Source: Flaccisagitta enflata (lineage: Eukaryota). From it: a DNA stretch of 64,000 nucleotides. The DNA lies in the NCBI GenBank assembly GCA_965153355.1, contig OZ231126.1, positions 49,910,001 to 49,974,000 of the forward strand. Direction: 5' to 3'. The notes beneath the pieces were generated by a model that saw only the letters and a program-made list of their open reading frames with translations, did no database searches and was not told the DNA's origin. Numbering within the stretch: the stretch's first letter is position 1; each line of letters opens with the position of its first letter. Both the position numbers and the translations under genes were made by a program. Below are positions 24,007 through 37,158 of this stretch, piece after piece.

Positions 24007-27138
<3,132 letters not shown>

Positions 27139-27259
27139 GTAAGATTTACATTTTTTTATTCTTGAATAATCTTGTTTCTTCTCTTTCCCTCCCCCCCCCT
27201 TAAAAAAAGGTGGCGGAATTTTTTTTTTCTTCCTTTTTGTCTTCATTTGTCATTTTTAA

Positions 27260-27363
27260 ACGTTCATCGTCCGCTTCATCCGAATATTTCTTCGTCTTTT
27301 TTACCCGGAGGCAACCGACCATTTTGAGTATCTCTCTCTCTCTCTTCTCTCTCTCTCTCTTCT

Positions 27364-27450
<87 letters not shown>

Positions 27451-27729
27451 CATGTTTGGTTTCCATCAGCAGTTTCTAACCATCTGTTGATGCGATTTCA
27501 GAGTCTTGTATTTTGAATTCATTTTCATACGAATGACAAGTGTGATACTTTTAATATTGCGTTGATTTGGCGTACAAAAGAAAAATACTCCCCCAGTAAG
27601 CGGGAAGCTATCTAACATGTTACGTTCATCGTCCGCTTCATCCGAATATTTCCTTCGTCTTTTACCCGGAGGGCAACCGACCATTTTGAGTATCTCTTTC
27701 TTTTTCTTTTCTTTTTTTTCTTTTTCTTC

Positions 27730-27785
<56 letters not shown>

Positions 27786-27950
27786 CATGTTTGGTTTCCA
27801 TCAGCAGTTTCTAACCATCTGTTGATGCGATTTCAGAGTCTTGTATTTTGAATTCATTTTCATACGAATGACAAGTGTGATACTTTTAATATTGCGTCGA
27901 TTTGGCGTACAAAAGAAAGATACTCCCCCAGTAAGCGGGAAGCTATCTAA
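27260..27950. repeat. local tandem duplication (~360 + ~330 bp)
   Basis: ACGTTCATCGTCCGCTTCATCCG...GCGGGAAGCTATCTAA occurs at 27260-27616 and 27622-27950. Confidence 0.9.
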
Positions 27951-29557
27951 TATGTAAAAACATATATTTGAATGCAAAAGAAAAACACGTACCTTCTGTG
28001 TAGGCTCAAATATCAATTCAATTCACAACTTGTGAATCACAAGTATGTGGAAACTAAGTTTCCATTCAAAAGAGAGAGATAACAAGTCCATAAGAGATAG
28101 AAATACCTTCGAAATCACGTTTAGAGAAAAAGAAGAAATAAAAACCAAGCAAAAACAACTTCATTAAGGACCAACCTACCTGCCTATCTACCGTAGATGT
28201 GAAGGCCTTATTGTCGGACTGTGAAACCTGTCGGACTCACCTGAAATGTTCAAAACAGAAGAGAGAAAAAACCGATGATAGTGGTTCATTTGTTTAAAAA
28301 AATCACTATTACCCTGCTTTCAAAATCGAGTGTTACCAGCAAAACCTTTATTGCGTCTGAAGTATACATTTTTGGAAATTCAGATTGGATTTGCCAAAAA
28401 GCGAATAACCTACCATTTGTTCATTCAAAATTTCATCACGCTGGCTCTAGCGGTTTATCGTCCACATATTTTTAAAATTTGATGAAATTTTGAGCAAAAT
28501 TTGCTAAAAAAACCGCATTTTTGAGCAATTTTGCAACTAGAAACTTTTATAAACTTTGCATATTATGAGTTTGAATGACCAAATAAGTCATGTATAGTCA
28601 GTAATTGACACTTACATTGTATCATTTTAGTTTTTCACCATTTTATAAGAAATTTTGGCGCTGAAATATAGTTGTCGTTATTTGAAACCTGCTCAAACTT
28701 CAAAAAATGAAAGGAAAACCCAGATTTTCCTCATAGATTTTAATGATTTGGTGTTTTCTAGAGAGATATTATAACTGTGTCAATGTAGGCAATGAGGAAA
28801 AGGAAAAGACAAAAAAAGACAATAAAATCAAAGACAAAACAATGTTGTACCTCAGCCGAGGCTTTGGACTCGCAGGAGAAAGGGTAAAACAAAATATTAC
28901 CCTTAATCCTGGCCGGTTTAGGCCCCATCACCGTTTCCCAAAGTACAACAAATAAATTGAGACAAAAATATAAAAACATAAAAATATAAAAGAGAATAGG
29001 AGAAGGAGACAGCAGCTTAGCAAGAGCAGAAATGAAAACTAAAGAGTGAAGGACTGAAGAGGAAGAGGAAAGGTTTGGTCAAAGAGAAAGAGTGGTCAAG
29101 AAAAGCCTGGTCAGAATGACAGAGGTCCTAAATTAGGAGAGGCAGAGGTTATGAAATGAAATGGAAAAAACATAAGGTAGTGAAATATGACAGAGGTCTT
29201 AGAGTGGTTATGAAATGAAATAAAAACCTAAGGTGGTAAAACATGAGGATTGGAATGCGCAAATCTATAAATAGTTCAAAGAGATTGTACAGATTACATA
29301 GATTACAAAAATAGTTCACATATTTTATTAAAACAAAGATTGAGCCTGCTATATGAATAGACCAGGCCCAAATTTCCCCAAAATTACAATTTTTTATACA
29401 TTTTTTACATATATATATAAATATATACAAATATAGATCAAAGCTATGTGAATAGACCAATGATCTATAAGATGAGGTTCGAGTCTGCTATATGAATAGA
29501 CCACAACTCTTACCTCATAGAAATTTTAAAAACAGAATAAACCTGGAAAAAACTAGA

Positions 29558-30152
29558 CTAATTGACTGGCTGAGTGGAAATAGTATTAAAACTACCTGAA
29601 GAAATATCTTTAAACCACTTATCAAAATCTAAAGGAATGACCCATCTCTGAAACTCTGAAATATACTTGTTGATAACCTTACAAAATTCGCTTTTCAAAA
29701 AACAAAAGTTATATCCCCTATTTAACAATGTCACCAGTAGAAATCTCACCCTTTCTTCAAAATCATAAATGTTACTACATAGCCTCTGAAATCTCAAAAC
29801 TTGTCCATAAAAAACCTTGTAACAAATCTTCCCATCAAGATTGCTCTCAAGAAATGGCAAAGAAATGACATCAAAAGGAAAAGCGTTGGTCTTACAATAA
29901 ACCTTAGTACTTATACCACCGTCCTGAATCCTGACCTCCATATCTAAAACATCAGCCTTTTCTAGGTCATCATTCTCCTTTGTAAGAGTCAAACTAGGTG
30001 GATATATCTCCGATGAAATTGCCATAAAATTCCTTATATTAAGAGAAGTACAGTCATCCCGATATCTTCTGAAAAATTCCAACCTTTCTGCCTCAATTCT
30101 TGCCCCTGATTTAACCTTAGAGTCAACATACCTGAACTCATCCACCATAAGT
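29558..30152 (-). CDS. Naiad-type PLE reverse transcriptase, C-terminal fragment
   Basis: LMVDEF..RRYRDD..IYPPSLTL..VLDMEV..SNL..FYGQVLRFQRLC. Confidence 0.8.
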
Positions 30153-30567
30153 AGGTGGGAAATTTCCAGCTAAAAACGCAAAGTACCAGTCAAAAAAATA
30201 GATAAGTGAATGAGGGGCTGTCTTAACTTGCTGGGTGTAAGTGGACAATGCTCGGTTCCAGGTGGAACATATCGCGCTTTTGAGTTTTAAATGTGTACTA
30301 TTATCATAAATTCTTCAACAATCAAGCAACCGCAGCTGCTTTCAAGTCCTCTGCCGCTGCTCCTGCAGGTGCTGCCGCATTTCCAATAGAAAGAAAAACA
30401 AAAGAACAGTTTTTGCCAGTGATTTCTTATGTACAATAATAAAAGGCTTAGGCGATTGGTGATTTTTGATAGGACAAGGTCAAATTTACGTCAGAACTGA
30501 AAGTTAAGACAGTCTATAACTCCCCGATGTGCCCTAAATCCCAGAATTCTCGATACATTGGATGCCT
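30153..30567. mobile_element. 415-bp insertion with 9-bp TSD splitting the PLE RT
   Basis: ACCATAAGT at 30144-30152 and 30568-30576; only AGG..CCT terminal complementarity. Confidence 0.8.
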
Positions 30568-31697
30568 ACCATAAGTGAGCAGTCAGAGAGCCATCCGGAA
30601 CTCTTCCCGCCCATTATGATCCCTAGATTCTGCTTGAAAATGCTACCAAAAGCCTTAATAAATGTGTTACGAACTAGGTAGTCTATCATATCCAGAATCT
30701 CATCAATTGAATAGACAACGCCCTCAGAGTTAGAAGAAACCCACCAGGCCTTCTCATGACCTATTCTAATCAATCTCATACCACTGTTCTTGCTAAGCTT
30801 ATTAATCAGCCAAACCATGTTACCTATCAAATGATCATGGTCAAAAAGGGTGTATAAGGTAGAAAAATCATTTATAGAGATAGTCTCCGCCTGACCATTT
30901 GCCTTACTAAACATTTCCTTCACTTCTAAACTCGTCTGAACATCGAAAAAGTACCTGATACCTGAGAATTCTGTATTCTTATTACAAAGATTCTTAAAGT
31001 GTCCCTTACACATCTTCAAGACACTAGCAACAATTCTATCAAGTCTCGAAGTAACAACGCTAACATTACCTGCAATATAGCGCATCTTAGGAGGGTTCTT
31101 ATGAAACTTAGGGGTCTGGTATAACAAAGCCAACCTTTCCTCTCTAATATTGGGAGTTATCCTGAACTGTGAAAGGTCAGCCTTGATCCTTGTTATAATC
31201 GTATCCTCAGAATCCGAAGAGAAGCCATAGGTCTCATTACACGGGATGTCATTATTCAAACCTAACTCTTCTGCTAACTCGAGAAAATAGAATTTCTTAC
31301 ATGTAAACGCGAAATTACAGGCCGCCTTATCTACAACAGTAATGACATAGTTCTCCTGAAGTCTGGATAGCTCATCCTTACAACCTCGCTGCAATAGAAC
31401 TGGTTTTCTATAGTTAACCCTGCCATAACATGACATTAGCTTACTATTGAAATTGCTCAACAAAGACTTCTTCCAAAATTTGAAAGCAGCACGTGATATC
31501 TTAAATTTACCAGCCATCTTAATAGCAAAGCTGTCAGTATCTTTCTTCATTTGTTCCCTAATCTTATTCAAGTCTAAATACGGGTTCTCGCGAAACTTAA
31601 AACCGAAAGAACATACCTCACGTAGTTGAGGATCACCAATGATACATAAATCGCCAGTGTTGACATGTCCAAAATGATCATGACTAATATCCTTCTT
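30568..31697 (-). CDS. Naiad-type PLE reverse transcriptase, N-terminal fragment
   Basis: Open frame from KDISHDHFGHVNTGD to SDCSLMV; joins the 29558-30148 ORF in frame once the insertion is removed. Confidence 0.8.
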
Positions 31698-32381
31698 TTA
31701 AGACAAATCTGGTCATTTTTGCTTGATTCGTTAAGAAATGACAATGATTTTAAGTCACAGTGTCATTGAATCTATCTTTAAAAAATCCTCTTAAGGAGTT
31801 TATCTCATTTTCATTCAAAATCATGTGGAAGCCAAACGGCTTGAGCTAGTCCTATGAAATTTTGCATGAACAAATGGTAGGTTATTTGCTTTTTGGCAAA
31901 TCCAATCTGAATTTCCAAAAATATATACTTCAGACGCAATAAAGCTTTTGCTGGTAACACTCGATTTTGAGAGCAGGGTATCATAATGACAAAACAGGTG
32001 TGTAAACTTGTTGTTTCAATGGATAACAAGAAAAGATACTTATCAGGGCTGTCGGAATAAGATTGGTTATCACACTTGAACTGGGTGTTGACGGCCCCAA
32101 GTATTTTGCCCACCATATGCGAGGAAACATTTGAATACACGCTTCAAAAAACATCAACGCGATTAAAGGTAGTAAATGGAGCGCAGAGCGGCAAACAGCG
32201 GCTGAGGTCGGCAAATGTTGGAGTATTATGTTTTTTACCTTTCCAGGTTATTTGATTCTAGAAAGTCGAAGCTTTCTGGCATGAATCCACGATTCGCCTG
32301 TGGTAACTTTTTTAGAGCAAGGTATCACGGATCTGAAAGTTAAAAAAATGAAAAAAATGTTAGTCCCTAAAAGGAGACATC

Positions 32382-32690
32382 TTTTTAGACGCGTCCGTTA
32401 GGAACGCAGCTCTATAAGGGGGGTTGTCCGTCCGTCGGTCCGTTTGTTCGTCCGTCCGTCCGTCCGTAACGCCTGTGCGAAAATCGCGTTTCTCGGCTGA
32501 TTTAGGCCACCGTGAGATCCTATACTGAATCTAATGCTCAACAAACGTGTTTTGAGAGCCTCCATTGCTACTCAGTCGCTTCATCTGCCTGTCCATCTGT
32601 ATCTCCATATATGTCACATAAATAATTAGCGCTAAAGTCAATACACGCAGAGACACAGTCCGGACGCCTCGTTGTCCGGTCGGGCATGTT
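32382..32690 (+). mobile_element. HINE-like family C element
   Basis: TTTTTAGACGCGTCC ... (GTCC)n ... GGACGCCTCGTTGTCCGGTCGGGCATGTT. Confidence 0.55.
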
Positions 32691-34076
32691 ATTTCCTGTA
32701 TAAAGGAAACCCGCCTATGACATGCACAATTTGTGTTTAACTGTTTAGTTTTTTTCTCTTCTGAGGTCCCATTTGAAAAGCGTCGGATTACTTTCAGACG
32801 GGGATATGAACCCCCTCTCTGTCTGCTCCCCCACCCTCCCTCTTGCATCGCGTCATCTTCTCTCACTCTTTAAGGCTTGTCGCTCTTCTTCCTCTTCCCC
32901 CTCCCCAATAGACAGAGGCATTAACGAATGCATTATTACAGAGAGAAGGCCCAACGTAAGCGACTCAATAATATACACCCCTGCTAACTTCATAAGCTGC
33001 TACATGAGCCTTATCAATTGACACAGACCTCACACTTTTATCAGCGAAATTACTCTCATGACTTAAACGCCGACACACCCTCCTAGTCACTGGCTTATTA
33101 AGGTGTGTCTATTGGTAGGGCTGTCCGTCCACAGGCAGGTTCGTAGGTCAGAACTGCGATTTTTTGATGACGCGAAATCGACTGATATAGTGGAGGCTGC
33201 TCCTACTCAACCACAACCGACTACTTGTTAGTTCTGGGCTGTGGGCTGTGGCTGTACTCGTTTGCTGTAAAATACGTGCATATAGACGCGGATATATCAC
33301 CTTTCGCTATTGTACACGTGGATAAAGCAAGCTTTATGCGACACATAACAGTCAGACAACTGCTTTAAGTGTCAGGAACAAAGCTATGTTTTTTTTCTGG
33401 CATTTAATCGATTTGTTCAGCGTAACAACCGTACGCCGAATACAATACAACATAGCGATATTGCACCCTGTTGCCTAGTTGTGGTTGGTCGGAATTGGTA
33501 TTTCTTTGATTTCTATATTTGATGTTCGTAGAAGTTTATCGTTTTGTCAGACGTTTCCTGTCGCCATGATTTAACTGCGTTCTCCTCCTTCTTTATGTCT
33601 TTTTTTCAATTCCTCTCCTTCATTTTCTTTTTCTTTTTCTTTTTCTTTTTCTTTTTCTTTTTCTTTTTCTTTTTCTTTTTCTTTTTCTTTTTCTTTTTCT
33701 TTTCCTTTTTCTCCATCTTCATTTTCTTATTCATTTTCTCCTTCCTCTTATTTTTGATGACATTGGCGCAGATTCTTGGTTCCCCTACTTAAGCTGTAAC
33801 CTTTTTACATCTTCTTAGGTTCCTTCCTTCGTGCTTTGATTCTTTCTCTCTTTCTCTGTCTCTATCTGTGTGTCTGTTTGTCTATCTATCAATATCCGTC
33901 TGTGTATGTGTCTTTGTAAGTCTCTTTATCTCTCTCCTTCTCTGTTTCTCTCTGTGTTCTTCATTCGCTCTCCCTCTGGTACTGTCTCTTTATCTGTTTG
34001 TCTGCCTGTCTGTCTGTGTTTGTCTGTCTATTTGTGTCTGTCTGTCGGTCTCTTTCTGTCTGTCTGTTCGTCTGCC

Positions 34077-34124
<48 letters not shown>

Positions 34125-34247
34125 AAGCACGATAGTTTCCCCCTCCTTAGCTATTCATTTTCAACGTTTAACGGCTGCCTCCGTCAACGTCTCTCTTTTT
34201 TGGGTCCTATTGTGAATTCACGTTGGAACCAAGACTCAGTATCAGAG

Positions 34248-34409
<162 letters not shown>

Positions 34410-35985
34410 TCTATGATAGGGCGTGTCCGTAGGTAACGCAAAATAGACTGAAATATTGATTTTAGCGCATTATTGCCCCCTGCCCAGCCACATGACAGCC
34501 CCCACCCTACCCCATATAATGCCCCTGCTCTCCTGCTCACCCGCCAGCGACTACTTATTGGCCATGTATCCGGACATGTTTGGAAGTGTCTTTAAAGTTT
34601 ATGTTACTAATGGAGTAACAAGGCCGGAAACACGGTAAATAAGTAGACGCATGCGGGTGGGCAGGGGCAGTAATACAAGTGGGCAGCGGCAGTATGTGGC
34701 AGGACGGGGGCTGTAATGAGAATGGCCGGGAGCATGAATGCTCAGATATTACTTTTTTTGCCAATTTCGCGTCGAGGACCGACAGACCCACAGATGCTTA
34801 GCGAGCTTAGCAAGCTTAGCAAGCGACTTATAATCAAAATTAGTAGTATCAGTTTTAGTTAAGGCCTTCATGGGCTCCAATAAAAGATGACAAAAATTAC
34901 TACACTTGTCATGGCGTACTGTAATTCCTAAAGATCTTGAACGAGGGAGTATCAATCACTCATTTTTGTTTTCTTGTTTCCACTTATGCGGCCCTACATA
35001 CTCTAGCGTTCTATAGCTTTAGAAAAAATATATGGATGACGCTTTCGCGGTCACCCCAAAAGGTCACTGATCTCATTATGCATATTGAATTAGAGGTTCG
35101 TTACTATTGACTTCAGCGGAAAACGAAGCCTTTACCAAGTACAACACCGATGAAGAAAGATAACGATTCTGCCCTATGCAGTCAGTGCTCAAAATAATGT
35201 TACAAAATATTCCTTGTCACAGTGTTAAGTCTAAGCATTCAAAATTATCAGTTACATTGAACAGACAAAATTGTCAATGTTTAGATCATATTACAGAACA
35301 AATGAAAGCCACTTGTGAGGGATTTAACAAGGATGATCAAATCGAGGTTTCTGAGGCAAAATTGTCGGAGAATTAAAATCATCTTGTTGTTACAGTCCTA
35401 CTACCAAAGAAGAACTGCCCAACTTATAGATGAACACCGGATTGGAACTTAATATAAATAAGGAAATTCTATTCAATGAGGCTCTTTTCCATAAAAACAA
35501 GTTCCAGTTTGTTGAGAAATGTAGTCTCTACCATTTTGTTCACAAACCGAGCGAGGACCGAGGTAGAAATAGTAGCACCTGCGGTAGTAGTTTATTGGAT
35601 TAGTTTCCTAATGGTGAGTAATTGAGCTTGGTAAAAATGGAAATTCTCAGAAAGATCGCTGATAAGCGCAAGGGTAGAAGGAAAGAAGAAAAGATTAGGG
35701 TACAATGGTACAACAGAGATCTACAAATACAAGTCAAGGTTGCATGAAGAAAACAGTCTACCTTTAAATCCAAAGGACTGATCAATCGATAGATAAAGAA
35801 TAGAACAAATAACGCAGTATTACAATATCGTCACCGATTAAGAGGGGGGGGGGGGCAGCGACGGAAATGTGCGTTTATACACTTGTTGAATCAATCATTA
35901 TGGAATATGGATACTATCATTGGATAGCCTAATGGGCTGACGAAACAACGGATCGATGGACAGACAGACAAACCTTCATTTAGCG

Positions 35986-36168
35986 TCGCGATTCCGCGAG
36001 TCCGCGATTCCGCGAGTCCGCGATTCCGCGAGTCCGCGCGTCCGCGAGTCCGCAAGTCCGCGAGTCCGCGAGTCCGCGAGTCCGCGAGTCCGCGAGCCCG
36101 CGAGTCCGCGAGCCCGCGAGTCCGCGAGTCCGCGAGTCCGCGAGTCCGCGAGTCCGCGAGTTCGCGAC
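35986..36168. repeat. 8-bp minisatellite (TCCGCGAG)n at a HINE terminus
   Basis: ~22 tandem units, versus ~8 in the duplicate at 60959-61022. Confidence 0.9.
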
Positions 36169-36387
36169 TAAATAAGGCCATATACACTCCCCCTAAGTCC
36201 CGCATAAACGTGGGCAGGAGTGGAAAACAGAAATGTGACGGACCGACCGACGGACCGACCAACCGATCGTTATTCTATCCTTGTTCAAAGGAAAGTATGA
36301 CAAGAATAAAAGAAAACAGACAAGAGAAAAGGTCAAAGTGGGTCGGTTAAAAAAATGAAGCGGGTGAAAATTGAGAGAACCGGGAAA

Positions 36388-36680
36388 GATGTAAAAAGCA
36401 TTAGCCAAAGAGTAGCGAGGAAAGTAGAAGAAAGAGAAGAAGAAGAGAGAAGAAAAAAAAAGTGGGAGAGATGTAAAAAGCATTAGCCAAAGAGTAGCGA
36501 GGAAAGTAGAAGATAGAGAAGAAGAAGAGAGAAGAAAAAAAGAAGTGGGAGAGATGTAAAAAGCATTAGCCAAAGAGTAGCGAGGAAAGTAGAAGATAGA
36601 GAAGAAGAAGAGAGAAGAAAAAAAGAAGTGGGACAGATGTAAAAAGCATTAGCCAAAGAGTAGCGAGGAAAGCAGAAGAA
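36388..36680. repeat. ~80-bp tandem repeat (GATGTAAAAAGCATTAGCCAAAGAGTAGCGAGG...) x4
   Basis: Units start near 36388, 36470, 36553 and 36637; collapsed to about one unit in the inverted duplicate. Confidence 0.85.
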
Positions 36681-37158
36681 AGAGGCAGGGGTGTATAAAA
36701 TTGATTCCCCCCTGCCTTGATTTTCTTCCCCATGAAGCAAAAGATCAGTGTAGTTAAATTGTGTTTTAGTAATCAGTTTTATTTTATCAGTTTTATTTTT
36801 TTATGATTTGGTACTGCCAAAAGTTTTATTTTCCCAAATTTTCTTTTTTTCTTTTTTTTCCCACTTTGATTTCCTTCCCCATCTCCAAACCCTTTGATTC
36901 CCCCCCCCCTCCCCCGTGGGGGTCAATTATATACAGGCCTGGAAAGAGGTGAAGAAGAGAGGAGAAAAAGAGAAGTGAGAGAGATGTAAAAAGCATTAGC
37001 CAAAGGCAAAGAATAGCGAGTAAAGTGGAAGAAAGAGGAGAGGATGAGAGAAGAAAAGTGGGAGAGAAGATCTCACTGAGAGGATTATCCAACAGAGCCT
37101 CGGGGGCCATATAAGCGATAAGAACTTCCTTGCTGGGATGAGACCCCTAAGTTTATGA

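What the first reader, a model, noticed from the sequence alone, without database searches (positions are those of the whole stretch)
29340..29518. Three hairpins with a shared core and different outer stems just 3' of the Naiad RT stop codon
Seen: the core GCTAT(A/G)TGAATAGACCA occurs three times (29348-29364, 29443-29459, 29487-29503). Each copy is closed by a different but pairing outer stem: TTGAGCCTG/CAGGCCCAA, TATAGATCA/TGATCTATA, and ATGAGGT..GAGT/ACTC..ACCTCAT. On the element-sense (minus) strand each reads stem, G, GU bulge, CUAU-UCAY-AUAG, C, stem, and the single mismatch in the first stem becomes a G-U wobble only on that strand. Established: Naiad PLEs are reported to lack canonical hammerhead ribozymes. 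Inference: structure kept with different stem sequences suggests a selected, repeated RNA motif (RT or host-protein binding, template selection). I know of no description of it.
Basis: partly seen in the sequence, partly recalled or inferred. Interest (0 to 1): 0.75.

Follow-up and report, generated by a model that had tools for sequence, protein, structure and literature searches.

The report
Triple bulged hairpin in Naiad 3' UTR
Just after the stop codon of a dead copy of a Naiad-type Penelope-like retrotransposon lie three small RNA hairpins with the same tip but different, still-pairing stems; this is most likely a signal on the element's own RNA, and I found it described nowhere, though I could confirm it only in this one element family.

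Summary
The 17-nt core occurs exactly three times in 64 kb (0 expected). Each copy sits in a hairpin whose flanks pair far better than shuffled flanks (39, 8 and 12 of 5000 shuffles reach the observed energy).

The host element is a Naiad-type Penelope-like element on the minus strand. It is 5'-truncated, and a 415-bp insertion splits its RT. The native stop lies 39 nt upstream of the first hairpin.

All three hairpins share one geometry: basal stem, G-C pair, GU bulge, 4-bp CUAU/AUAG stem, UCAY loop. Four basal-stem positions pair in all three copies with two or three different pair types each. The three wobble states seen are G·U on the element-sense strand and A·C on the other.

A second copy (P0051) and high-depth contigs from public runs carry the same hairpins, so the module belongs to the family.

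It matches no SECIS, hammerhead, tRNA or other Rfam family.

The core is absent from the 54 published Naiad consensus sequences and from two large contig collections. Conservation beyond this family is untested.

Best reading: a sense-strand RNA signal bound by a protein, probably the element's own. Function is inferred, not shown.

The parts
29472..29518 (-). Hairpin H3 (47 nt). Outer 7-bp stem AUGAGGU/ACCUCAU, a 2x2 internal loop, an inner stem homologous to the H1 stem, one bulged G, then G-C, GU bulge, CUAU/AUAG and a UCAU loop. Core at 29487-29503.
   Evidence: -16.1 kcal/mol on minus, -13.5 on plus; 39 of 5000 flank shuffles as good; pair table. The high-depth contig of run X5 has 29481 G>A, which is G-C to G·U on the minus strand.
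29432..29469 (-). Hairpin H2 (38 nt). 9-bp stem UAUAGAUCA/UGAUCUAUA, a UU/UU internal loop, then G-C, GU bulge, CUAU/AUAG and a UCAC loop. Core at 29443-29459. It starts 2 nt after H3.
   Evidence: (-11.0 on minus, -10.3 on plus; 8 of 5000).
29372..29431 (-). A/U-rich spacer with a (UA)-type tract between H2 and H1. It is internal to the element and varies in length by one TA between copies.
   Evidence: sequence; in P0051 the distance between the H2 and H1 cores is 93 nt, against 95 in the window; reads and contigs break at 29395-29439.
29340..29371 (-). Hairpin H1 (32 nt). 9-bp stem UUGGGCCUG/CAGGCUCAA with one G·U, then GU bulge, CUAU/AUAG and a UCAU loop. Core at 29348-29364.
   Evidence: (-14.1 on minus, -9.8 on plus; 12 of 5000). 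X5 contig 13 matches 29207-29362 exactly at depth 579.
29558..29560 (-). Native stop codon (TAG) of the Naiad ORF, 39 nt upstream of H3.
   Evidence: the ORF aligns to residue 979 of the 980-aa relative P0005, then runs 7 more residues to the stop.
29561..30152 (-). C-terminal part of the RT ORF. It matches P0005 residues 790-979 at 62% identity.
   Evidence: tblastn 30151..29582.
30153..30567 (-). Foreign 415-bp insertion that splits the RT. It has a 9-bp target-site duplication, ACTTATGGT, at 30568-30576 and 30144-30152. It is not part of the hairpin module.
   Evidence: k-mer depth in X5 is 48,787-189,879 over 30158-30300.
30568..31697 (-). N-terminal part of the retained RT ORF. It matches P0005 residues 421-792 at 67% identity and contains GFKF and VVDKAA. 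The copy is 5'-truncated just after the CxC motif of its relatives; no endonuclease is present.
   Evidence: no match to P0005 residues 1-420 anywhere in the window.
28992..29339 (-). Remainder of the repeated unit downstream of H1 (3' UTR or pseudo-LTR). It includes AAUAAA at 29329-29324 and two copies of a roughly 59-nt tandem unit. The lower limit is approximate.
   Evidence: exact high-depth contigs cover 29068-29176 (depth 1027) and 29207-29362 (depth 579), and depth steps at about 28970. (D12). P0051 matches down to 29263.

Best explanation
The three hairpins are cis-acting structures in the sense-strand RNA of this Naiad family. They occupy the first ~220 nt of a roughly 570-nt 3' UTR / pseudo-LTR.

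The sequence-invariant tip (closing G-C, GU bulge, 4-bp CUAU/AUAG stem, UCAY tetraloop) is the recognition surface for a protein. The basal stem only has to be double-stranded, so it has been free to change by compensatory substitution.

I think the most likely partner is the element's own ORF product. It would bind its mRNA just downstream of the stop codon as it is made (cis-preference and template selection), with several sites allowing several protein molecules to bind. The two copies seen do not end in the hairpins, so I take them to be binding sites, not the points where reverse transcription starts.

Shown: the structure, the covariation, the strand bias and the presence in other copies of the family. 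Inferred: that the molecule is RNA and not sense-strand DNA, that a protein binds, and which protein.
For: (1) Three exact or near-exact cores, with none expected by chance.

(2) Flank pairing beats shuffled flanks in all three hairpins: 39, 8 and 12 of 5000. The whole 221-nt region has z -4.59.

(3) In one common register, basal positions u2-d3, u3-d4, u4-d5 and u5-d6 pair in all three hairpins with different pair types: C-G/A-U/U-A, G-C/C-G/G-C, G·U/U-A/A-U and G-C/A-U/G-C. H1 and H3 have homologous arms (81% over 36 nt, D11). They differ by one double compensatory change (C-G to U-A) and two one-sided changes that keep pairing.

(4) The two non-Watson-Crick pairs in the window (H1 u4-d5, H3 u1-d2) and the variant 29481 G>A in the X5 family contig are all G·U on the minus strand and A·C on the plus strand. 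All three hairpins are more stable on the minus strand.

(5) The 17-nt core is 16 of 17 identical in H2, while all 9 basal pairs of H2 differ from those of H1. So the tip is held constant while the stems turn over.

(6) The module belongs to the family. X5 contig 14 (579 nt, depth 677) and X1 contig 3 (1753 nt) run from the RT through H3 and H2. P0051, a spurious 80-aa ORF from another contig, encodes H3-H2-spacer-H1 and downstream sequence in the same order and spacing.

(7) Precedent: a purified Poseidon PLE protein starts reverse transcription inside a stem-loop of its own RNA (PMC11167929, abstract and main text).
Against: No copy from another Naiad family could be examined. The core is absent from the 54 published Naiad consensus sequences and from every hairpin-context match in the viral and metagenome contig collections. 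By eye, the two published ctenophore Naiad 3' UTRs show no such module.

The covariation rests on three paralogous hairpins in one locus plus one variant. The strand bias is 3 of 3, which chance gives 1 time in 8.

No transcription was seen. The poly(A) RNA run X24, about 6% of it read, laid 1 read on the 1.6-kb stretch and none on the hairpins. The X7 RNA-library contig stops at 29530, 12 nt short of H3.

Both copies continue well beyond the hairpins (to 29263 or further, and 29068 or further). The hairpins are therefore not where these copies end, unlike the Poseidon initiation stem-loop. Nothing tested here identifies the binding partner.
Confidence: 0.4

Rival explanations
1. The hairpins are selected sense-strand RNA structures, but they serve host machinery and not the element's RT. 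Possible roles are mRNA stability, localisation, translation termination or 3'-end formation, given that AAUAAA lies 10 nt after H1.
For: All the structural evidence for the best explanation applies equally. The hairpins lie at the start of the 3' UTR, not at the 3' end of the copies. AAUAAA is at 29329-29324.
Against: Nothing tested here separates this from binding by the element's own protein. No Rfam cis-regulatory family matches. The repeated unit continues more than 250 nt past the AAUAAA in other copies, so that signal does not mark the end of the copied RNA.
Confidence: 0.2
2. The hairpins are neutral DNA palindromes. A short hairpin-prone core was duplicated in an A/T-rich UTR, and its flanks became inverted repeats through fold-back or template-switch synthesis or slippage, with no RNA function.
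For: PLE insertions are known for inverted and tandem rearrangements (PMC8557442 section 6). The context is A/T-rich with a variable TA tract. The core is confined to this family as far as could be seen. Only three hairpins support the covariation.
Against: Fold-back would give perfect arms. Instead, the same asymmetric GU bulge and register are kept in all three hairpins, H1 and H3 arms differ by a compensatory pair, and all three wobble states favour one strand. H2's arms differ from H1's at all 9 pairs while the core is 16 of 17 identical. That would need three independent fold-backs on a 4-bp A/U-rich stem.
Confidence: 0.2
3. The hairpins form a small self-cleaving or processing motif that replaces the hammerhead ribozyme of canonical PLEs and cuts tandem transcripts into units.
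For: The hairpins lie in the pseudo-LTR region, where other PLEs carry hammerheads, and Naiads lack canonical hammerheads.
Against: No ribozyme family of Rfam 15 matches at E up to 10 on either strand. No CUGANGA...GAAA core lies on the sense strand of the 3' UTR; the pattern matches 7 times in the window against 14.5 expected, and the only match near the element is on the + strand. A 4-bp stem with a tetraloop and a 2-nt bulge has no known catalytic core (my knowledge).
Confidence: 0.05
4. The hairpins are a SECIS element, as in the selenoprotein-encoding Naiads, or an unrelated inserted repeat such as a tRNA-derived SINE or a MITE.
For: Published SECIS elements of Naiads lie 1-21 bp after the stop. 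There is a weak tRNA-model match on the + strand (15.4 bits, E 1.9).
Against: Neither RT ORF contains an in-frame TGA. No SECIS family matches. The hairpins are 32-47 nt long and lack the AUGA/GA quartet on the sense strand. ARAGORN finds no tRNA in 28000-31000. The hairpins are contiguous with the RT in other copies.
Confidence: 0.03

Closest known systems
RT-initiation stem-loop of the Poseidon PLE of Anolis carolinensis (PAc; Frangieh et al. 2024, PMC11167929; abstract and main text read)
   Same: Both are stem-loops in a Penelope-like element's own RNA, near the junction of UTR and ORF, used in cis by the element's protein. In PAc, two adjacent start sites 30-40 nt apart explain the 'tail'. 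Here two hairpins sit 44 nt apart, core to core.
   Different: The PAc stem-loop is AC-rich and lies 111-118 nt inside the ORF start, and genomic copies end in it. Here the hairpins follow the stop codon and have a U/G-rich tip with a GU bulge and a UCAY loop. There are three of them with a shared core, and the two copies seen run on past them. The clade also differs: Naiad, with an N-terminal endonuclease.
Hammerhead ribozyme motifs in pseudo-LTRs of canonical PLEs (PMC8557442; PMC11167929)
   Same: Both are structured RNA in the UTR or pseudo-LTR of a Penelope-like element.
   Different: There is no hammerhead catalytic core and no three-way junction, and no Rfam match. Naiads are reported to lack canonical hammerheads.
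SECIS elements of selenoprotein-encoding Naiads (Naiad_Scon, Naiad_Mmer, Naiad_Sdum, Naiad_Smim; PMC8557442 section 8; passages read)
   Same: Both are RNA hairpins directly downstream of a Naiad ORF stop codon.
   Different: Here there are no in-frame UGA codons, no SECIS core and no Rfam SECIS match. The hairpins are much smaller and occur three times.
3' UTR stem-loops recognised by the RTs of 'stringent' non-LTR retrotransposons such as eel UnaL2 and insect R2 or SART1, and bulged protein-binding hairpins such as HIV TAR and the MS2 or PP7 operators (recalled; no call)
   Same: The logic is the same: a conserved loop and bulge read by a protein, on a stem whose sequence is free to vary.
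   Different: Those LINE stem-loops lie at the very 3' end of the element, whereas these lie at the start of the 3' UTR. No sequence or family relationship was tested.

Membership tests
Naiad clade of Penelope-like elements (host element) | N-terminal GIY-YIG endonuclease upstream of the RT in the same ORF | tested here: met
   Met in full-length relatives, not in the window copy itself, which is 5'-truncated. PF01541 lies at residues 106-203, 89-156 and 118-174 of P0005, P0028 and P0023. These are 3 of the 4 relatives scanned; the 792-aa P0001 has none. These proteins are 54-67% identical to the window RT.
Naiad clade of Penelope-like elements (host element) | DKG motif changed to DKA, and a GxKF/Y motif (PMC8557442 section 6) | tested here: met
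   The window ORF 31697..30534 reads VVDKAACNF and GFKFRE.
Naiad clade of Penelope-like elements (host element) | CxC motif in the linker between the endonuclease and the RT | tested here: met
   P0005 has CSC just before residue 421, where the window copy starts. The alignment consensus reads CDC. The motif is missing from the window copy because of the truncation.
Naiad clade of Penelope-like elements (host element) | Placement inside the Naiad clade in an RT tree with reference sequences | not tested
   The reference ORFs exist only in the paper's supplement and could not be handed to the alignment tools.
Naiad clade of Penelope-like elements (host element) | No canonical hammerhead ribozyme | tested here: met
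   No hammerhead family at E up to 10 in 27000-37000 or in 29250-29600. No core motif on the sense strand of the UTR.
SECIS element | In-frame UGA codons in the upstream ORF, plus an AUGA...GA kink-turn core and a match to a SECIS model | tested here: not met
   No TGA in either RT ORF. No SECIS match.
Hammerhead or other known self-cleaving ribozyme | Catalytic core (CUGANGA...GAAA) or a match to an Rfam ribozyme model | tested here: not met
PLE RT-initiation stem-loop (as in PAc) | The 3' ends of genomic copies and the RT start sites fall inside the stem-loop | tested here: not met
   The window copy, P0051 and the X5 contigs continue beyond H1 to 29263 or further and 29068 or further. Among the 14 loose ends listed, none is at 29340-29518; 93 more were not shown. 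RT start sites cannot be tested with these tools.
tRNA-derived SINE | tRNA-like fold or tRNA gene model | tested here: not met
   The Rfam tRNA model gives 15.4 bits against a gathering score of 29, E 1.9. ARAGORN finds 0 genes in 28000-31000.

The most novel reading that the evidence does not exclude
The hairpin triplet is the Naiad counterpart of the stem-loop and hammerhead module of canonical Penelope-like elements. It would be a multivalent 'copy me' tag that the Naiad protein reads on its own RNA just after the stop codon. Any RNA carrying the small tip (G-C, GU bulge, CUAU/AUAG, UCAY) on any stem could then be mobilised. That would explain how hammerhead-less Naiads select templates and reach very high copy numbers, and it would give a minimal portable recognition element for this RT class.
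Probability: 0.2. Interest if true: 0.7.

Novelty: new variant of a known kind. Interest (0 to 1): 0.45.

Why it matters
How Penelope-like elements choose and copy their RNA is largely unknown. The only biochemical study (PMC11167929) found initiation inside a stem-loop of a Poseidon element. Naiads are the most abundant PLEs in many invertebrates, and they lack the hammerhead motif that marks other PLEs (PMC8557442).

A small, repeated hairpin with a fixed tip and covarying stems, directly behind the stop codon, is a concrete candidate for the missing cis signal. It can be tested with the existing in vitro system using loop, bulge and compensatory stem mutants. If it is confined to one family and has no effect, it is a minor structural curiosity of one retrotransposon UTR.

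Tried and rejected
1. No whole genome is held for this window. Other copies could not be collected directly.

2. Exact-core scan of viral contigs: 11 loci in two sequence families, none with outer stems (-2.1 to -7.4 kcal/mol against -11.8 to -16.6 for the window's hairpins in the same 57-nt frame). These are chance matches.

3. Exact-core scan of metagenome contigs: 74 loci.
- None encodes a PLE RT (tblastn with 4 relatives found nothing).
- Similarity to the window UTR is limited to 19-32 nt around the core.
- One group of 4 loci (L023, L047, L062, L083) and L021 fold about as stably, but with other sequence and no RT.

4. The RT protein and a 23-sequence RT alignment found no relative in viral contigs or genome contigs.

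5. Searches with the spurious 112-aa ORF across the hairpins found one protein, P0051, in the 'near' length class, none in the 'shorter' class, and P0051 again in the representative library.

6. Earlier-findings look-ups by sequence and by place returned nothing.

7. Supplement of PMC8557442:
- 10- to 13-nt words of the core, on both strands, gave 0 hits.
- Of the peptide words from the window RT, only FSTLYT matched (6 rows of a figure). ORF sequences there are cut at 400 characters, so the closest published family could not be named.

8. By-eye reading of the Naiad_Bfor and Naiad_Mley 3' UTRs showed other hairpins but no window-like core. Naiad_Mley has an 11-nt word twice, 53 nt apart. This is not a formal test.

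9. MAFFT alignments A1 and A3 of the hairpins put the H3 gap in the wrong place for the structure. I therefore made the pair table by script from window coordinates and did not use the count of structure pairs or a covariance model.

10. RNA evidence from read laying:
- The poly(A) run X24 gave 1 read, outside the hairpins.
- The X7 RNA-library contig covers 29530-30067 only.
- There is therefore no evidence for or against transcription of the hairpins.

11. SECIS, hammerhead, tRNA-SINE and snoRNA readings were rejected.
Full report
**What is there**

On the + strand the 17-nt word GCTATRTGAATAGACCA lies at 29348-29364, 29443-29459 and 29487-29503. These are the only matches in the 64-kb window with up to 2 mismatches or up to 3 mismatches. 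Dinucleotide shuffles expect 0.00 and 0.25 matches, and 0 of 100 shuffles reach 3.

RNAfold places each core in its own hairpin on either strand:
- Minus strand, 221 nt: -53.6 kcal/mol, z -4.59, 0 of 200 shuffles as good.
- Plus strand: -39.4 kcal/mol, z -4.06, 0 of 200.

With the core fixed and each flank shuffled separately, 39, 8 and 12 of 5000 shuffles reach the observed energy for H3, H2 and H1.

**The host element**

The element lies on the minus strand. Two ORFs, 31697..30534 and 30169..29558, match residues 421-792 and 790-979 of the 980-aa protein P0005 at 67% and 62% identity.

P0005 and 49 other proteins from metagenome assemblies match the first ORF. The top 47 are 49-69% identical; the remaining three are 26-35%. 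Of 4 relatives scanned, 3 carry a GIY-YIG domain near their N-terminus. P0005 also has a CSC motif just before residue 421.

The window ORF reads VVDKAACNF and GFKFRE. An N-terminal endonuclease, the CxC motif, DKA in place of DKG and the GxKF motif are the diagnostic features of Naiads (PMC8557442 section 6).

This copy is dead:
- It is 5'-truncated. Nothing in the window matches P0005 residues 1-420.
- A 415-bp insertion at 30153-30567 splits the RT. It is flanked by the 9-bp duplication ACTTATGGT.

The stop TAG at 29560-29558 lies 7 codons past the last aligned residue, which is residue 979 of the 980-aa P0005. It is therefore the native stop, and H3 starts 39 nt after it.

**Anatomy on the sense (minus) strand**

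The order is: stop, 39 nt, H3 (29518-29472), 2 nt, H2 (29469-29432), a 60-nt A/U-rich spacer with a UA tract, H1 (29371-29340), then AAUAAA 10 nt further on (29329-29324).

All three hairpins share a tip: a closing G-C, a 5' GU bulge, the 4-bp stem CUAU/AUAG and the loop UCAU (UCAC in H2). Below the tip the stems differ.

In one common register, allowing one bulged G in H3, the pairs are as follows (H1 / H2 / H3):

| Position | H1 | H2 | H3 |
|---|---|---|---|
| c1-f1 | U-A | U·U | U-A |
| u1-d2 | C-G | U·U | U·G |
| u2-d3 | C-G | A-U | U-A |
| u3-d4 | G-C | C-G | G-C |
| u4-d5 | G·U | U-A | A-U |
| u5-d6 | G-C | A-U | G-C |

Outer pairs then differ completely between the hairpins.

H1 and H3 have homologous arms (81% over 36 nt, D11). 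They differ by one double compensatory change and two one-sided changes that keep pairing. H2 shares 16 of 17 core bases but none of its 9 basal pairs with H1.

Both non-Watson-Crick pairs are G·U on the minus strand and A·C on the plus strand. Each hairpin is more stable on the minus strand: -16.1 vs -13.5, -11.0 vs -10.3 and -14.1 vs -9.8 kcal/mol.

**Other copies**

No genome is held for this window. Public runs labelled 'marine metagenome', and runs of a coded 'organism A', hold 53-63% of the sampled words of 29200-30200.

Laying four runs on 28700-30300 gave these results:
- X5 contig 14 (579 nt, depth 677) and X1 contig 3 (1753 nt) run from the RT through H3 and H2 to 29440, where the TA tract breaks assemblies.
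- Inside the hairpins the only difference is 29481 G>A in X5. It turns a G-C of H3 into G·U on the minus strand. That makes a third wobble state on the same strand, so 3 of 3 (chance 1 in 8).
- Exact contigs of similar depth cover 29207-29362 (depth 579) and 29068-29176 (depth 1027). Depth changes sharply near 28970.
- One X1 contig joins 29466 to 29340 through 14 other letters. I read this as a variant copy whose H3 has H1-like arms.

A search with the spurious 112-aa ORF that crosses the hairpins found one protein, P0051 (80 aa), from a 3230-nt contig. It matches the window in two frames:
- Residues 1-34 match 29504-29403.
- Residues 23-80 match 29436-29263.

This fits one TA unit fewer in the spacer, giving 93 nt against 95 nt between the H2 and H1 cores. 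The H3-H2 spacing is the same 44 nt.

The three hairpins and the spacer are therefore an integral, conserved part of this family's 3' UTR or pseudo-LTR. The copies do not end at them.

**What it is not**

- No Rfam family matches the hairpins at E up to 10, in a 10-kb search or a 351-nt search. In the latter the best were tRNA at 15.4 bits (E 1.9, plus strand) and SNORA38 (E 2).
- ARAGORN finds no tRNA.
- The hammerhead core pattern is not on the sense strand of the UTR. It has 7 matches in the window against 14.5 expected.
- The RT ORFs hold no in-frame TGA. The SECIS reading, which is valid for four published Naiads whose SECIS lies 1-21 bp after the stop, does not apply.

**Reach beyond this family: not shown**

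- Exact-core scans gave 11 viral-contig loci and 74 metagenome-contig loci. None has the outer stems in a PLE context and none encodes a PLE RT. Similarity is limited to 19-32 nt around the core.
- RT-based scans of viral and prokaryote-genome contigs found nothing.
- Words of 10-13 nt from the core are absent from the supplement of PMC8557442, which holds 54 Naiad consensus sequences. Its FASTA is line-wrapped, so a word split by a line end would be missed.
- By eye, the Naiad_Bfor and Naiad_Mley 3' UTRs have other hairpins but no such module.

**Mechanism**

The tip is held constant while the stems turn over but keep pairing, with wobble pairs only on the sense strand. This is the signature of a structured sense-strand RNA whose loop and bulge are read by a protein and whose stem need only be a helix.

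For PLEs there is one biochemical precedent. The purified Poseidon protein of Anolis starts reverse transcription at two adjacent sites inside a stem-loop of its own RNA, and the 30-40-nt 'tail' is the stretch between those sites (PMC11167929, abstract and main text).

Here the hairpins follow the stop codon and the copies run on for at least 75-270 nt beyond H1. I therefore favour binding sites for the element's own protein (RNP assembly in cis and template choice) over initiation sites. I put about 0.4 on this specific reading and about 0.7 on 'selected sense-strand structure of some function'.

The rivals are a host-factor 3' UTR element (0.2), neutral fold-back palindromes (0.2), a small ribozyme or processing signal (0.05), and SECIS or a foreign repeat (0.03).

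**Novelty**

The Naiad paper's main text has no occurrence of 'hairpin' or 'stem-loop'. Full-text searches for Penelope-like with stem-loop, or with hairpin and UTR, listed only ribozyme and general papers plus PMC11167929 (listings only, except the papers named).

Two earlier AI notes from this scan describe hairpin modules at unit junctions of Naiad/Chlamys-type elements in other genomes. I did not check them.

I class the finding as a new variant of a known kind: cis-acting stem-loops of retrotransposon RNAs. It rests on one family.

Noticed in passing
window 30153-30567: A 415-bp insertion splits the Naiad RT. It is flanked by the 9-bp target-site duplication ACTTATGGT (30568-30576 and 30144-30152). 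Its k-mer depth in run X5 is 48,787-189,879, against roughly 600-1,600 for the RT, so it is a very-high-copy short element (SINE- or MITE-like). It was not characterised.
   Followed up: partly
window about 28767-28954: A very-high-copy repeat of about 190 bp. X5 depth is 16,000-42,500, and contigs from three runs begin and end there. It lies next to a T/TA-rich tract at 28962-28991, where depth falls to about 960. This is probably the 3' limit of the Naiad unit.
   Followed up: no
window 28310-28476 and 31814-31980: A 167-nt inverted repeat, 89-90% complementary, brackets the whole truncated Naiad copy. It could be the inverted partial copy typical of PLE insertions, or the arms of another element into which the Naiad inserted.
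   Followed up: no
proteins P0022-P0045 (relatives of the window RT): Many relatives end in FSQP, about 17 residues, then SQP and the stop. P0023 has tandem 16-aa repeats there. The window ORF ends STQPVN-stop. This may be a conserved C-terminal peptide or a conserved nucleotide motif at the ORF end.
   Followed up: no
window 24007-27165 (+): A 1052-aa ORF with very long polyQ and polyS runs and no Pfam match. It is presumably an exon of a host gene.
   Followed up: no
window 29144-29226: Two copies of a roughly 59-nt tandem unit lie in the UTR downstream of H1 (D12: 24-nt cores, 88% identical). Contigs in run X1 diverge at 29165 and 29167, which suggests the unit number varies between copies.
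   Followed up: no
loci L012, L013, L016, L019, L025 and related loci (metagenome contigs): About 30 of the 74 metagenome matches to the core belong to one repeat family found on many contigs of one group of samples. It has a conserved context of its own and no PLE RT. It is unrelated to the window element beyond the 17-mer.
   Followed up: partly
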